From a plasmid, in NCBI RefSeq assembly GCF_054482595.1, contig NZ_JBTHVH010000004.1: a stretch of 64,000 bases of DNA. One strand, given 5' to 3'. The position numbers were made by a program. Below are positions 48,001 through 57,000 of the stretch, piece by piece; the first letter of the stretch is position 1; each line of letters starts with the position of its first letter.

Positions 48001-51000
48001 AAAGTCGGTGCGATGCATAAAGTCCGTATTTTCGGACGTGTTGGTGAAGTTATAAGCAATGATAGCCCTCAGGAAAGAATCTTCCGCGAAGTCACTATAG
48101 CGGAGGGTAATAGCCAGCAGGCTGCGTTACTTGTAGATAACTACATACAGTGTCTTGAGAATAATGGCTTCACGACTGAAGCATAAATGTTGAGGGCCCC
48201 CGGGCCCTCTTTCTTAAATTCTGCGTTGTGGGTTTCTCCCTGTCTTCTGCACCGCAGAAGGCATTGAGAAACTCACAATGCCAGATAAGAGAGATCATCA
48301 TGACTTATGCATCCCCGGCTCTTCGTCGTAATCCACAGGAAGTATCTGAACACTTTATTAAACTCGTTCATGCTCGAATTGCTGAAGTGTCTGGCTGGAA
48401 GTATATATTCGAAAGAATACCTGCTTTCAAAGACGCTTGTGCAAAAGCCCCGAGCCAGGTTCCTTGCCCGTTTACTGGCGCAGGGAAATCGAAGTTTCGT
48501 TTCCGACAAAAAGACCTTTATACCGGATGTGCGATCCATAATGACTTTCCGGTAAATGAGTTTTGCGACGGAATTGATGTTCTGGCGAAATATTATGAAT
48601 TAAGTAAAACGCAGACTTGCAAAAAGATTCTCTCAGATTTTTTCGGGATGGATCTGCATGCTCCGTTAACTGACGCCGACATTGAAAATGAACGACGCTA
48701 TAAATCAGCAGTTCGTGCCACAGAAACTCTTGACCGAGAGGAAGTGGCAAAGCGAATGCGAAAACTTGATGTGATGTATCACTATACCGGTGAAATCAAG
48801 CCTAATACTCCTGTTGCTTTGTACCTCCGTAATCGTGGGATCTCCCGCTTACTGAGTCACTTACCAAAGGATTTAGGCTTTAATAACCGGATCTACTATT
48901 GGGATAAAGATAAGCAGAAATCGATTATCTATCCGGGAATGATTGCGATCTATCGTGACACCCGAGGTCGGCCTCTGACTATTCATAGAACATACGTAGA
49001 CAAAAATGGTGATAAGGCACCTGTAGAAAATCCAAAGCTGATGATGAAGCCTCCTGCCGATATGACAGGTGGCTCAATTCAGTTGTTTGACCCTCACTAT
49101 GATTCAGGTAGTTCGACCTGGACACTGGGAGTGGCTGAAGGGATCGAGAACGCGCTTTCTGTTGTAGAAGCGACTTCAACACCATGCTGGGCAGCCAGCT
49201 CCGCATGGTGCCTTGAAAACGTTACTGTTCCTGATTTTTTACTGCCTCCGCCGGATGTAAAATCTATAAACTTTTATATCTGGGCGGATAAGGATATTGC
49301 TAACTCACAAGGCACTCGTGCCGGTATTGAAGCTGCTCAGCGACTTCAAAGCCGCATGGTTGAGTTTTTGGCTAAACGATATCCCGCATCAAAGCTGACA
49401 ATTGAAGTCTTCGAACCAGCACAAGATATTCCTGATGGGAAAAAGGGTATCGACTGGAACGATGTTCTCCAGTTAACAGGGCAGGATGGATTCCCGATTC
49501 ACTGGGCTCCTGAATGTCTTAATCAGCTGTAACAACGATAACTCCCCCGCTTTTTGCGGGGGGGGTTATCTTATCAATATTATATTTTAAAATTGTATTG
49601 ATAAGATAACCGCTTTCCTTCGTGATAATTACCTGCCTTTAAGGTCTTTTCACGGCTGAGATGCTTGCTCAGTTAAATAAATGTGCGGTACTACTGGCTA
49701 TGGTCGGTTGTATGACATGGTTATTCCATAAACTATTAAAACCCATAACGGGAGTATTACCGTTATGGTGATGCTCGTCGTTTTACATCGGAGAGCATTT
49801 TAATGAATTTTCAAATTAACGAAGTTTTTAATAAATTTGCTGCTGTTATAAAATCGCGCATCGTCAATGAACCATCGTCATGCTATTTGCTGCATGATAA
49901 TGAGATAGATATAACGATTTTGAAACATAGCATATTAGAAAATGACAGAAACCTGTTGTACGTAGTTCGTCCTTCAGGAACGTGTTTGTTGCGTTGTGAC
50001 AAATATTTCTATCCGAAATATTATCTTCGTTGCCGTGGAGATTATAAGTCATTCATATATGTCCATCTTGATCTACATAGTGGTGAAGCTAAAGAAATCA
50101 CATGGGAGCAAGCAGACGATATGCTGTCTAGTCCAGGAAAACCCCCATTAAAAGGGAATCTTGGACGATTTGAGTATATAAAAGTTGTGGTTGAGGACCT
50201 TCGTATTCGAGGTTACGCTGATTATCTTCCTGCGTATAATCTTGATGACCTTCGCCGTTTTGCCTTACAGGACGACCGCCCATCCCTTGTCAGATACATT
50301 GACAATGTCATGGCAACGGTCTGATTGATTGCTAATTGATTTACATATTTTCCCTGATGGCCAACCTGCATCAGGGAGGCCTCAATAACGAATGGAGGCT
50401 GTATGAAGTTAGCTACGGACCTGGTAAAAGCTATTTTGATTAGAAATGGCGTTGAACCAGTAAATATAAGCGAATCATCTAAGTTATCTTTGAAACAACC
50501 ACTGACAGAACTTAAATTCAGTTTATATTTGCGAACTGAGCATTTATCTCACTTCCTACCCGGTTATGTTTATTCTATAAAAGAATGTCCACTGTCATAT
50601 GACATCGGGATCGAAATTCAGAAAATCTTCGAAAGTTTACATTTGTTAAACGAAGAATTTGAATCCCTCGGTTTTGTTTCTGTATGGATAGAAATGCATC
50701 AAAGCATTTTTGAACAAAGTCGGTTTAAGAAAAGTAACTTTACTTTTCGGGAGGAAGAGGTCGAGCTTGCTAAAGGGCTTGTTTGTTCTCACAATTCACA
50801 AATAAGTAATGCGGCTTATTTCTGGCTTCAGCACTTTGAGGAGTTTATGATTTATGTTCGTAATAAGCTTATCGACCTCTTTCGAGAGGCCTATGACCTG
50901 ATCCTTGGAATGCAGCAAGTATTTTTCATTCGGGAAAAGGAAGAGCTGTTGAAAACTATAAGTTATGGCGATGAGCTGTATGAGGTGAAATTCATGGCGG

Positions 51001-54000: not shown

Positions 54001-57000
54001 ATATGCCAGATATATATATTAAGTTTAACGATACATTTGATGGGAACGGGGCGTTATATTGTGACAATGATGCCCTCATATCCCTCTATACCGATGTTGC
54101 TTCAATTATCAATGTGCCGGTGATGATGGAAGTAAGATTGATCAATAAAAGAGGGCGTGTTGTCTGTGATTCTTCGCATTCAACTTACGTATCTCTCGAA
54201 AGTAATGACCGATACAGAGTAACTGATCGCACATTACTAATAACTGAAGCTTTTGACGATTTTCGTAACGCGTCTCAATGATCCTTTTGCTTCAGTCCAA
54301 AAAAGTAACTTTGGTTGGCTGAAGACACTTGTCTATGACAATGTAAAATCTGTCGCTGGCATCTTCTTTTAGCTTAACCAAATTTTTATCTAACCCAGTG
54401 GGGAAGTCGCTTCCCTTCTGGGGCACTTCCTCTCAAATTCGAGGTAGTGTATATGACACATTCATCTGATGATAAAAACTATGTCCGAGCAGTTCTGAGT
54501 TATCTTGGCATAGATTTTGATGAGGCGGATATAGTATTAAGTGTTTGCCATTGTCAAAGTGACGAGCTTTCTTTTACCTGTAATATCAAAGCTATTGAAC
54601 TCAAGAATGTTGTTGATTTATATGTCGATAGTATCTCTGAGAATGAAATAGAAGCTTTAAACAGAGAATCTTTAAAATCGCGACTCTGTTACTTTCTTGA
54701 GGTGTTTGACGCAGTCTCTGGTCAGTACCTTGAAATTTCAGGAAAACACTTTGCAACTAGTCGTTTTGAATATGATGATGTTTGTAGTGAAGTTCTTAGC
54801 ATGTCTAATGATGTTTCTCAGTCGAAAGGTTATGACCGGGATGAATATAACAGACTGATGCAGGTTGATGGTCAGGTTATGATTGCCCGTTTTGCTTTGC
54901 AACAGTTCTGGGATACTCATTTTATTGGACTAATAACATTTGTATCTGAGTCTATAACATCGAGCCTCTATAAAGCTTATGAAACTTTTAGTGATATTAG
55001 TTTGGCTTGCTATAAACTGAGTGAATATTCTTATTCACGCTCTATCAACAGTGAATTGACCCTTAATATTTCACTTAAAGAAAATGACTTCTGTGAGGAC
55101 CTATCTGATTGCTATATGGAAGATGAGGCTTTACCTTCTGGTAGGGTAATTTCTCGACGCAACAATGACTCCATAATAAGTATTTATGAGAGCTATGCTG
55201 CGGCTTCTTATATTCCGATGATTGCATCTTTGGAAGTCGTTGATGAATACGGCGAAGTGGTTACTGACCTCTGCCATACCGTTTATGTTTCAGAGTTAAC
55301 CGGTGGGCGGATTAAAATCCACGACCGTAATGACTTAGTATCTGAAGTTTTCGATAACCTAAGAAATTTAAATCTTGCAGTTGGAGATTCAGTTTCACAA
55401 GCTGCTTGATTCTTTCCCTGATTTTGATTTTTTCTCACATACTCTTATGGCACGGTTTCCGTGCCTTTTTTTTGCCTCGCTTACAAGCGTCTACTCCTCT
55501 TCTACCTATCCCACCTTACATCACCACTTAAAATCTATCTTTCTAATTCCATTATCCTTTTCGTAGCCTCTAATGCTCTGGTATGAACATACTCTTTAAA
55601 CTCAAAAAAGTGCTATTAACGAAAAAAAATCCCTAAAGAGATTTGTATACTGTTCTCAACCAAGGAGAGCTCATGAATGAACTAAAATCCAAAAACGAGA
55701 ACAGTACCAAAAGCAACTTTCCCCCGGTTGATAATCAGTTTTGCTTTTACCATGTTGATTTCAGCATAGAACGACTACTTTCTACGGCCGAGGATCTCCA
55801 GCTTGAGTACATCTTCCAGAAACCTGGAAGTGAAGTAAGAAAGGATTTGGTTGAGCGATTCGAACGTGGAGAGCGCTTTGTTACAGCTTCACACTGTGAC
55901 AATTTCTGTGAAATCCTTGGTTGTCAAGGCCATCAGGAAAATGCATAAACCCATAAACCTACATTTCCACTTTTAAGGATGTTCACTAAAGAATGATTGG
56001 AGAAAGTATTTTTGACTGGGTAATTTACGGAATATCCATTTTGATATTTGCCTCAGCACTAATTGAAGGAAAGACAACTCGCTACCCAGCACTTTTTTTC
56101 TATGGGAGTTTAATTTTAATGTTAATCCTGATAGTTGCTGGAGGCCTTAACTGGTGGTTCTACAGGTCAAAATATGGCGCAGTAATCGTTATCTTCACAG
56201 TGGTTTCTTTACTGATGACTCGATTCCGCCTGGTCATATATAAATTAAGATTAAGAAAGTTAGTTTCAGAGATCAGATTTCGTATAAAAACGGGTTTTCG
56301 TATAATTCTTGTTTTGTCGGATAATGAGGATGAGCGTAATGTTCTGCTGTCTATGCTTAGCAACGTATTGCCAGAGCAAACGCTTATTCACACGCGTGAT
56401 GCTCTCGGACCTCATTCAGGGCCTATCCTAAAAGCTCTTGAGCTACATCATCAACAGGGAACAGGTTACATACTCGTCTGTGAACAACAAATCTCAGCGC
56501 GTACGTGGTTGAGTATCGTAGAAAATGGGAAACCTGATACATCTATAGCTGTTAATTTTCATTCGATCCCAGAAATGGAGTGATTTTTCAATGAGTAGAA
56601 CCGTTTCACAAAGTGTCACAGAAGATTGTCTTTTTGATACCCGCACACAAGTCAGATTACAACTAAGTCGAAGCGTTCATAAAACGCTGGCATCTGCTAA
56701 AGAAATTTTACAGGGAAGGGGGGTTGATTCGGTCTCTATTGAAGATCTTGTGCGAGCCTGTCTTGAAGAGAACCAGCCAATTGATCTCGCCTCACTTTAC
56801 CTTGAAAATCTCTTAAAACAGAAAGGTACCAGCATTTGCGATTTTTAGTGTTTTCAAACCTATTAGATAAAATGCCGGTTGTGTTTATATAACATCAATA
56901 ATTTCATGCAACAGGTAAAACATGAGTACTCAAAAGCAACTTTCCAGAACAACCGGCACTGAACGTATGTTTAAGGAAGAGCTGGCGTTATCCTTAATTT

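What the first reader, a model, noticed from the sequence alone, without database searches (positions are those of the whole stretch)
50403..55473. Array of five tandem, size-conserved but highly diverged paralogs of unknown function
Five consecutive plus-strand genes start at 50403, 51352, 52356, 53343 and 54453, a period of 949-1110 bp. They encode 292, 311, 306, 312 and 318 aa.

Members 4 and 5 are plainly homologous: VDGKVLVAKFALKQFFHSDFGDFISFVEKRIT against VDGQVMIARFALQQFWDTHFIGLITFVSESIT, and ITEAFDDFRN against VSEVFDNLRN.

All five open with the same amphipathic pattern followed by a short beta-like segment: LVKAILIRNGVEPVNISE, IEKIINAFLVVQHKKIQVKNITF, IQKLVESILVKMGFVGAVVENIYL, VEFVSAFLYQNLGLNVSADDITV and YVRAVLSYLGIDFDEADIVL.

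Each is preceded by its own copy of the intergenic element, so the duplicated unit was gene plus element. I see no catalytic motif, signal peptide or TM segment. The block ends at a strong terminator (55449-55473).

Ancient tandem amplification followed by strong divergence is the pattern seen for proteins in arms races, such as anti-restriction or anti-defence decoys and immunity-like families. That interpretation is an inference only.
Basis: partly seen in the sequence, partly recalled or inferred. Interest (0 to 1): 0.7.

Follow-up and report, generated by a model that had tools for sequence, protein, structure and literature searches.

The report
Orphan five-gene paralog array, IncHI plasmids
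Five neighbouring genes on IncHI2 resistance plasmids are ancient, very diverged copies of one previously undescribed protein family with no detectable relatives or known fold, each preceded by an RNA switch that hides its ribosome-binding site; their function is still unknown.

Summary
Five + strand genes (292, 311, 306, 312 and 318 aa) sit at the stated coordinates on an IncHI2 plasmid backbone and end at a canonical terminator. Profile comparison shows all five form one superfamily. The M1-type is the hub, M2 and M3 are sisters, and M4 and M5 are sisters. The neighbours 42214 and 49803 are not members. AlphaFold models of M3 and M4 are confident and share secondary-structure order. No PDB or viral structure matches, and no Pfam, NCBIfam, PHROG or PADLOC family matches.

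The family is confined to IncHI-like plasmids. Across lineages the array has 0, 2, 4 or 5 genes, with subfamilies lost independently and one lineage-specific duplication. Only the acidic M5-type is universal.

dN/dS is 0.14-0.25, like the neighbours, and the relaxase is at least 70 kb away. The arms-race and anti-defence reading is therefore neither supported nor excluded.

The "intergenic element" is real but occurs at junctions throughout this operon. It has a GC-rich hairpin carrying a Shine-Dalgarno mimic, an anti-SD arm, and the SD itself. The three parts co-vary (permutation p = 5e-5).

Best guess: individually dispensable, non-enzymatic binding proteins that aid plasmid establishment.

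The parts
50403..51281 (+). M1, 292 aa. Subfamily A, the profile 'hub' of the superfamily. Near-neutral charge, pI 8.2.
   Evidence: ORF. Orthologs are found only in IncHI-like plasmids. hhalign A-C E = 6e-10 and A-D E = 1e-6. A-type proteins hit the D HMM at 1e-5 to 4e-4.
51352..52287 (+). M2, 311 aa. Subfamily B, sister of M3. Absent in the L011/L013 lineage.
   Evidence: ORF. B-C hhalign E = 5e-15. BLAST between B and C across loci gives 1e-3 to 1e-9.
52356..53276 (+). M3, 306 aa. Subfamily C. Has a basic motif, RYLxGRxxKRRIYA.
53343..54281 (+). M4, 312 aa. Subfamily D, M4-type clade. Net charge -14.
54453..55409 (+). M5, 318 aa. Subfamily D, M5-type clade. The only member present in every array. 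Strongly acidic: pI 4.3, net charge -30.
   Evidence: ORF. BLASTP to M4 gives E = 3e-37. Charge. D phylogeny. Most conserved array member between IncHI2 and IncHI1, at 64%.
50351..50400 (+). RNA element before M1. Hairpin 1 at 50351-50377; SD-sequestering hairpin 2 at 50378-50400.
   Evidence: Fold and coordinates. Y-Y' duplex -8.8 against Y'-Y'' -8.7 kcal/mol.
51292..51351 (+). RNA element before M2. Hairpin 1 at 51292-51319 carries the SD mimic GGGGATCAC. Hairpin 2 at 51321-51351 pairs the anti-SD GTGATCCC with the SD region GAGGATCAC.
   Evidence: All three parts co-vary with the IncHI1 copies, which read GGGGATTAC / GTAATCC / GGATTAC. Fold z = -8.6.
52298..52348 (+). RNA element before M3. 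Hairpin 1 at 52298-52331; hairpin 2 at 52333-52348. An alternative perfect 12-bp pairing exists: GGGATTTCTCCC / GGGAGAAATCCC.
   Evidence: Fold z = -9.0.
53282..53340 (+). RNA element before M4. Hairpin 1 at 53282-53309; hairpin 2 at 53312-53340.
   Evidence: Homologous to the M5 copy (repeat D6).
54394..54450 (+). RNA element before M5. Hairpin 1 at 54394-54422; hairpin 2 at 54423-54450. It lies at the 3' end of an unusually long 171-nt spacer.
55449..55473 (+). Intrinsic terminator closing the transcription unit: GGCACGGTTTCCGTGCC followed by T8.
   Evidence: The RNA element is absent from all junctions downstream of it.
41720..49799 (+). Further copies of the same two-hairpin element in the same operon, before g41776, g42214, the AAA_5 ATPase gene (weak copy), the DUF3150 gene, the VWA gene, g47965 and g49803. 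This is context for the array, not part of it.
   Evidence: The two-hairpin parser with strong Y-Y' pairing picks out only junctions from 41776 to 54453 among the 48 annotated + strand starts surveyed.

Best explanation
Shown. M1-M5 are five members of one IncHI-restricted protein superfamily of about 300 aa that has not been described before. The proteins are soluble and mixed alpha/beta. No residue typical of catalysis is conserved across the superfamily. The family arose by old tandem duplications at the 3' end of a long operon: g40846, ..., AAA_5 ATPase, DUF3150, VWA, DUF7146/Toprim, g49803, M1-M5, terminator. It has since evolved by birth and death. Arrays are ABCDD', ABCD', BCD'D', ACDD', AD' or absent, depending on the lineage. 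All members are under purifying selection.

Inferred. The proteins act as separate, individually dispensable binding modules rather than as enzymes or as one obligate complex. They most plausibly neutralise or recruit host factors during plasmid establishment or maintenance. The universal, strongly acidic M5-type would be the core activity and the other paralogs would broaden the target range.

Inferred from structure and covariation. Translation of each cistron is gated by its own upstream RNA switch. By default hairpin 1 forms and the anti-SD arm (Y') pairs with the SD region (Y''), which blocks initiation. When hairpin 1 is opened, its SD mimic (Y) captures Y' and frees the SD. The most likely opener is the ribosome terminating on the preceding cistron, which would couple translation along the operon.
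For: - One superfamily: hhalign scores lie far above shuffled and same-operon controls. Subfamily HMMs hit each other's proteins. M3 and M4 models have the same secondary-structure order.
- Birth and death: compositions across loci. L010's two D copies are an independent duplication.
- Not an obligate complex: A, B and the M4-type are each lost in some lineage. The whole array is missing in K. grimontii and Photorhabdus elements that keep the flanking genes.
- Functional genes: dN/dS is 0.14-0.25 and lengths are identical between IncHI1 and IncHI2.
- Non-enzymatic: the only superfamily-wide invariant positions are hydrophobic, L12 and F145/148.
- Acidic core member: net charge is -21 to -30 in every lineage.
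- RNA switch: folds have z of -3 to -9. 34 of 158 consensus pairs carry compensatory double changes. Cognate Y-Y' duplexes average -9.4 kcal/mol against -4.9 for non-cognate, with permutation p = 5e-5. The Y-Y' and Y'-Y'' energies are roughly equal within each copy. The stop codon lies 1-10 nt before hairpin 1 at seven of the eleven window junctions parsed as two hairpins.
Against: - No experiment or homology links the proteins to any function.
- Gene-wide dN/dS does not exceed that of the neighbours.
- Copy number is invariant within IncHI1 and IncHI2.
- The locus is at least 70 kb from any annotated relaxase gene.
- The conserved gene order, and the fact that every array seen has at least one A/B/C-type plus one acidic D-type, also fit a small heteromeric assembly.
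- For the switch, four window junctions have hairpin 1 far beyond a terminating ribosome's reach: 20, 26, 112 and 210 nt from the stop codon. Ribosome relay therefore cannot be the only trigger.
Confidence: 0.4

Rival explanations
1. The paralogs are subunits of a heteromeric assembly of at least one A/B/C-type plus one acidic D-type. The assembly would work with the operon's other products (AAA_5 MoxR-like ATPase, VWA protein, DUF3150, Toprim primase-like protein) in plasmid DNA processing or replication. It would not be directed against host factors.
For: - Gene order is conserved, and every array contains at least one A/B/C member and at least one acidic D member.
- Length conservation is strict and selection is purifying.
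- The genes are co-transcribed with DNA-metabolism-like genes and share the same translational gating.
Against: - The upstream operon exists without any array in K. grimontii, with its RNA elements intact.
- Individual subfamilies are lost independently.
- No interaction data exist.
Confidence: 0.22
2. They are nucleic-acid-binding proteins that act on plasmid RNA or single-stranded DNA. The N-terminal alpha-beta-beta-alpha-alpha-beta unit has the secondary-structure order of a type-II KH domain, and M3 carries a conserved basic motif. One possibility is that they regulate the intercistronic RNA elements.
For: - Both models have the N-terminal secondary-structure order alpha-beta-beta-alpha-alpha-beta.
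- The basic RYLSGRVMKRR segment is invariant in subfamily C.
Against: - There is no GXXG loop. The inter-helix loop reads HNAS, with a family consensus of xAPx.
- The universal member is strongly acidic.
- The RNA elements persist where the array is absent.
Confidence: 0.12
3. They are lipid- or hydrophobic-ligand-binding proteins with a TULIP/BPI-like wrap.
Against: - The better M4 model gives none of these hits.
- The proteins are cytoplasmic, with no signal peptide or membrane segment.
Confidence: 0.07
4. For the RNA element: it is mainly an mRNA processing or stability signal, or an attenuator, rather than a translational switch. It could act as a REP-like 3' protector of the upstream cistron or as an RNase site.
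For: - Hairpin 1 is GC-rich and stable and sits directly after stop codons.
- In several copies the alternative Y-Y' hairpin is followed by a T run and is flagged as terminator-like.
Against: - The SD is always in the 3' arm of hairpin 2, which ends 0-10 nt before the start codon.
- Co-variation of all three parts (SD mimic, anti-SD, SD) is not needed for a stability hairpin.
- T runs are absent from many copies.
Confidence: 0.2

Closest known systems
Plasmid anti-restriction and anti-defence genes (ArdA, KlcA/ArdB, ArdC, PsiB) in leading regions (Samuel et al. 2024, PMC11541004)
   Same: Plasmid-borne, non-enzymatic-looking and fast-diverging. They vary in presence between related plasmids, and one member is strongly acidic, as DNA mimics are.
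   Different: No sequence or profile similarity. No relaxase gene is annotated within about 70 kb on either side. The genes sit at the end of a 15-gene operon rather than behind an ssDNA promoter. dN/dS is not elevated.
Birth-and-death tandem arrays of diverged paralogs, such as orphan immunity-gene arrays next to polymorphic toxin loci (my own knowledge)
   Same: Head-to-tail paralogs of conserved size with very low identity, and copy number that varies between lineages.
   Different: There is no adjacent toxin or effector gene. Orthology has been stable and copy number fixed across about 1,400 plasmids. The proteins are about 300 aa, larger than typical immunity proteins.
Translational coupling through SD-sequestering hairpins, as in repY/repZ of IncB/IncI plasmids, tap/repA of R1, and MS2 coat/replicase (my own knowledge)
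   Same: The SD is buried in a hairpin just before the start codon, and an upstream sequence can compete for the anti-SD arm. Upstream translation plausibly opens the structure.
   Different: Here the module is repeated at about a dozen consecutive junctions of one operon, each with its own sequence. It carries an explicit SD mimic locked in a separate hairpin 40-50 nt upstream of the SD. No Rfam family matches. The trigger is untested.
TULIP/BPI-like and type-II KH folds
   Same: Weak structural resemblance of parts of the models. The N-terminal secondary-structure order alpha-beta-beta-alpha-alpha-beta is the same as in a type-II KH domain.

Membership tests
Single paralogous superfamily comprising M1-M5 | Statistically significant, collinear profile-profile similarity between all subfamilies | tested here: met
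   A-C E = 6e-10, B-C 5e-15, A-D 1e-6 and BC-D 5e-4. Scores are 35-107, against shuffled maxima of 21-28 and same-operon controls of 10-21. The direct B-D and C-D comparisons alone are not significant (E = 0.03-0.06), so those links go through subfamily A.
Single paralogous superfamily comprising M1-M5 | Same predicted fold | tested here: inconclusive
   The M3 and M4 models share secondary-structure order.
Known anti-restriction or anti-defence protein families (ArdA, KlcA/ArdB, ArdC, PsiB, Ocr and others) | Sequence or profile match to the family model | tested here: not met
   No Pfam, NCBIfam or PHROG family reaches significance for any of the five proteins. Profiles A1 and A4 find nothing among PDB sequences.
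Leading-region anti-defence island | Located in the first-transferred DNA next to oriT and the relaxase | tested here: not met
   No relaxase gene is annotated within positions 1-125 kb or 215-247.7 kb of NZ_CP091570.1. The array lies at about 50-55 kb. oriT itself was not mapped.
Leading-region anti-defence island | Early expression in the recipient from a single-strand promoter | not testable with these tools
   This needs time-resolved RNA-seq after conjugative entry.
Type-II KH domain (N-terminal ~100 aa) | Alpha-beta-beta-alpha-alpha-beta topology with a GXXG loop between the two consecutive helices | tested here: not met
   The topology is present, but the loop reads HNAS in M4 with a family consensus of xAPx, with no GXXG.
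Polymorphic-toxin immunity array | Adjacent toxin or effector gene | tested here: not met
   The neighbours are a Toprim gene, a 173-aa hypothetical, small hypotheticals and a Tus-like gene.
SD-sequestering translational control element | SD inside a hairpin arm next to the start codon, with pairing maintained by compensatory change | tested here: met
   Hairpin 2 ends 0-10 nt before the ATG. 34 of 158 pairs show double changes. The GGATCAC/GTGATCC pair becomes GGATTAC/GTAATCC in IncHI1.
SD-sequestering translational control element | Competing alternative pairing (anti-anti-SD) specific to each copy | tested here: met
   Cognate against non-cognate Y-Y' duplex energy: permutation p = 5e-5 (window), 5e-5 (L003), 1.4e-3 (L005) and 2.5e-4 (L011).
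SD-sequestering translational control element | Opening by upstream translation, or by another trigger such as temperature | not testable with these tools
   Only geometry is available. The stop-to-hairpin-1 gap is 1-10 nt at seven window junctions and 20-210 nt at four.
Intrinsic (Rho-independent) terminator, 55449-55473 | GC-rich stem-loop followed by a T run | tested here: met
   A 7-bp stem with 6 GC pairs, a 3-nt loop and T8.

The most novel reading that the evidence does not exclude
The array encodes a new, IncHI-specific class of establishment or counter-defence proteins with a fold not represented in PDB. The acidic M5-type would be the core inhibitor and the paralogs would extend the target range. 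The whole operon would be translated through a previously undescribed, repeated 'SD-mimic relay' RNA switch that passes ribosome arrival at one stop codon to the next cistron's ribosome-binding site 40-50 nt away.
Probability: 0.2. Interest if true: 0.8.

Novelty: new variant of a known kind. Interest (0 to 1): 0.55.

Why it matters
IncHI1 and IncHI2 plasmids are major carriers of multidrug resistance in Salmonella, E. coli and Enterobacter. The annotated reference plasmid used here carries mcr-1. About 5 kb of their conserved backbone is spent on this family, in about 1,400 PLSDB records, yet every copy is annotated "hypothetical".

This work gives concrete hypotheses for deletion and interaction experiments. 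The five genes are one orphan superfamily with confident models and no structural relatives. The array expands and contracts between lineages. One acidic member is universal.

The repeated RNA module, whose three parts co-vary, is a tractable natural example of operon-wide translational gating. It may also bear on how expression of long plasmid operons is coordinated.

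Tried and rejected
1. 42214-43191 and 49803-50324 as further family members. 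Rejected: hhalign scores are 12-19, at background level.
2. Array proteins acting obligately on the RNA elements. Rejected: K. grimontii L030 keeps the elements but has no array.
3. An obligate five-subunit complex. Disfavoured by the independent losses of subfamilies.
4. Gene-wide positive selection. Not seen.
5. Classic leading-region location. No relaxase is annotated within about 70 kb.
6. The search for related loci with the M4/M5 alignment failed because no stretch was conserved enough. I anchored on the Toprim gene instead.
7. AFDB Foldseek was not available.
9. Literature searches found no description of these genes, or of IncHI Tn-seq or expression data that I could map. R27's RefSeq locus tags no longer match the published R-numbers.
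10. The 2778-aa hit P0023 from the phmmer search looks like an adhesin-like protein and is probably a spurious match.
11. The weak phrog_10163 match to the M4 N-terminus (E = 0.005) was not pursued.
12. Rfam has no family for the element.

Full report
**What the window is.** The region matches 1,125 PLSDB plasmids, 1,112 of them at 99% identity or more. They come mostly from E. coli, Salmonella and Enterobacter. The annotated reference record is typed IncHI2A, MOBH and MPF_F. All genes under the finding are annotated "hypothetical protein".

The array lies at the 3' end of a long + strand gene string that starts after the Tra2 gene trhI. The order is g40846, g41776, g42214, AAA_5 ATPase, a small ORF, DUF3150, VWA, a 73-aa ORF, DUF7146/Toprim, g49803 and then M1-M5. 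Small hypotheticals and a Tus-like gene follow.

**Checking the observation.** The five ORFs have the stated coordinates and sizes. BLASTP confirms M4-M5 homology: 27% identity over 309 aa, E = 3e-37. It gives only a marginal M2-M3 hit (E = 0.004) and nothing for M1. Homology of all five was therefore unproven at that point.

**Gathering relatives.**
- M1 has orthologs only in IncHI-type plasmids. These are at 99% identity or more in IncHI2 and about 51% in IncHI1.
- IncHI1A and IncHI1B plasmids carry the same five genes in the same order, with identical or nearly identical lengths.
- An exhaustive phmmer search with M4 against 1.84 billion representatives returned only 21 proteins.
- Looking up the contigs of the most distant hits, and anchoring on the conserved Toprim gene in species-representative genomes, gave further IncHI-like backbones with different arrays. 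These have two genes (L005/L006) or four genes (L008/L010, L011/L012, L013/L014 and Buttiauxella L025). Photorhabdus L028 and K. grimontii L030 have none, although their flanking genes are conserved.

**One superfamily.** BLAST clustering of 29 array proteins gives four groups:
- A: M1-type.
- B: M2-type.
- C: M3-type.
- D: M4/M5-type.

B and C are linked at 1e-3 to 1e-9. Profile-profile comparison gives the following:

| Pair | E-value | Score | Column-shuffled maximum |
|---|---|---|---|
| A-C | 6e-10 | 74 | 25 |
| B-C | 5e-15 | 107 | 21 |
| A-D | 1e-6 | 52 | 22 |
| BC-D | 5e-4 | 35 | 28 |

All alignments are collinear from residue 1 over 230-290 columns. Seven unrelated proteins of the same operon score 10-21 against these profiles. 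Plain HMM searches also cross subfamily boundaries: A proteins hit the D HMM at 1e-5 to 4e-4, and C proteins hit the A HMM at down to 1e-10.

**Structure.**
- AlphaFold2 gives confident models for M4 (pLDDT 89.9, pTM 0.83) and M3 (pLDDT 81.5, pTM 0.79).
- Both have the same order of elements: an N-terminal helix, a beta hairpin, two helices and a strand, then a helical middle with one very long helix, then an alpha/beta C-terminal part.
- BFVD gives nothing. AFDB was not available.
- Pfam, PHROGs, NCBIfam, PADLOC and PDB sequences give nothing.
- No membrane segment is predicted.
- The only superfamily-wide invariant residues are hydrophobic. A shared catalytic site is therefore unlikely.

**Evolution.** Array compositions are:

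| Composition | Where |
|---|---|
| A-B-C-D-D' | IncHI1, IncHI2 and relatives |
| A-B-C-D' | Buttiauxella L025 |
| B-C-D'-D' | L010 |
| A-C-D-D' | L011, L013 |
| A-D' | L005 |
| none | Photorhabdus L028, K. grimontii L030 |

- A distance tree of D members separates an M4-type clade from an M5-type clade.
- The M5-type is present in every array. L010's two copies are an independent duplication within that clade.
- M5-type proteins are strongly acidic in all lineages, with net charge -21 to -30.
- Between IncHI2 and IncHI1, M1-M4 are 45-53% identical, among the lowest values in the 20 genes compared. Most neighbours are 57-87% identical; g55673, at 46-49%, is as low.
- dN/dS between IncHI1A and IncHI1B is 0.14-0.25, within the range of the neighbours.
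- Within PLSDB, the M5 query matches about two places per record (2,819 places in 1,406 records), consistent with M4 plus M5.
- The family is therefore functional, individually dispensable and turning over slowly. There is no gene-wide signal of positive selection.

**Location.** No relaxase is annotated within positions 1-125 kb or 215-247.7 kb of the reference plasmid. The array at about 50-55 kb is thus at least 70 kb from any annotated relaxase. It is not a classic oriT-proximal leading region.

**The intergenic element.** Each array gene is preceded by a module of about 50-60 nt. The module has two hairpins.
- Hairpin 1 is GC-rich and typically runs (A)CCC...GGG.
- Hairpin 2 follows directly. 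Its 3' arm contains the Shine-Dalgarno sequence and ends 0-10 nt before the ATG.

The same module precedes g41776, g42214, the DUF3150 gene, the VWA gene, g47965 and g49803, and weakly the ATPase gene. It is absent from the tra genes and from everything downstream of the terminator at 55449-55473. Folding energies have z of -3 to -9 against shuffles.

The apical part of hairpin 1 (Y) is complementary to the anti-SD arm (Y'). Y therefore mimics the SD region (Y'').
- In the M2 copy the three parts read GGGGATCAC, GTGATCC and GGATCAC in IncHI2. They read GGGGATTAC, GTAATCC and GGATTAC in IncHI1.
- Across 54 parsed copies in seven loci, cognate Y-Y' duplexes are about 4 kcal/mol more stable than non-cognate ones. 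Permutation p is 5e-5 in the window and at most 1.4e-3 in the three other loci tested.
- Cognate Y-Y' duplexes are about as stable as the Y'-Y'' pairing.
- Alignments of orthologous junctions show 34 of 158 consensus pairs with compensatory double changes. For one junction the consensus fold is the alternative Y-Y' pairing.
- Rfam has no match.
- The element persists in K. grimontii, which lacks the array. It therefore does not depend on the array proteins.
- Only the M4 and M5 copies are recognisably homologous to one another. This supports "gene plus element" as the duplicated unit for that pair only.

**Interpretation.** Two things are shown: the superfamily with its birth-and-death history, and the RNA module whose three parts co-vary. 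The functions are inferred.

For the proteins, I favour separate, non-enzymatic binding modules that help the plasmid in new or current hosts, with the acidic M5-type as the core. The reasons are that members are lost one at a time, no catalytic residues are shared, and divergence is among the highest in the operon. The main rival is a small heteromeric assembly working with the operon's ATPase, VWA and Toprim proteins. This cannot be excluded, because every array has at least one A/B/C member and one acidic D member.

For the RNA module, a default-off SD hairpin released by an SD mimic fits the covariation. The stop codon lies 1-10 nt before hairpin 1 at seven of the eleven window junctions parsed as two hairpins. 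This suggests relay by the terminating ribosome. Gaps of 20-210 nt at four junctions show that another trigger must also exist.

**Verdict.** The duplication-and-divergence reading is supported. The arms-race reading is untested and lacks the expected dN/dS and positional signatures. The family is new and its function is unknown.

Noticed in passing
window 41720-54450 (junction elements); L030 4455-4513, 6430-6521, 7599-7662, 11213-11281: The two-hairpin intergenic element is operon-wide and not array-specific. Its three parts (SD mimic, anti-SD, SD) co-vary. It is retained in a K. grimontii element that has no array, and it has no Rfam family.
   Followed up: yes
window 49542-49611: Directly after the Toprim gene there is a strong GC hairpin (CTCCCCCGC...GCGGGGGGG, 49542-49564), followed by a 48-nt AT-rich near-perfect palindrome (49564-49611, arms 23 nt, 87% complementary). 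This could be a partial terminator plus an operator or promoter region that starts a g49803-M5 sub-operon. Rfam's weak 'mir-3327' hit here is the palindrome.
   Followed up: no
window 48187-48299: A very stable long hairpin (about -62 kcal/mol for the 113-nt spacer) lies upstream of the Toprim gene's ATG at 48300. It overlaps the alternative GTG start at 48228. This differs from the standard two-hairpin module.
   Followed up: no
window 54282-54393; L003 15892-16067; L010 6645-6803: The spacer before the last array gene is much longer than the other array junctions in most lineages with several array genes: 159-176 nt in IncHI1, IncHI2 and L010, and 101-106 nt in L011/L013, against about 66-106 nt elsewhere. 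In the window it contains promoter-like hexamers at 54253-54282 and 54322-54349. This may be an internal promoter.
   Followed up: no
window 51000-54000: The array has the lowest G+C content in the window (0.343-0.353, against 0.35-0.50 elsewhere). IncHI plasmids encode Hha (annotated nearby), and my own knowledge is that they also encode H-NS-like proteins, so the array may be a silencing target.
   Followed up: no
window 45881-47893: The VWA protein has a net charge of -74, due to a long acidic, low-complexity linker (roughly residues 250-400) between its N-terminal part and the VWA domain.
   Followed up: no
L011 7986-8906; L013 6950-7870: The called starts of the M1-type genes in these metagenomic loci add 14 spurious N-terminal residues (MGSPSGGP...). 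Using the internal ATG restores both the family N-terminus (MKF...) and the upstream RNA element.
   Followed up: partly
L028 11258-12268; L030 12085-12783: In Photorhabdus the array and g49803 slot is an approximately 1-kb stretch without an ORF of 120 aa or more. In K. grimontii an unrelated 232-aa ORF occupies the position after the g49803 homolog. The site behaves as a variable slot in a conserved backbone.
   Followed up: partly
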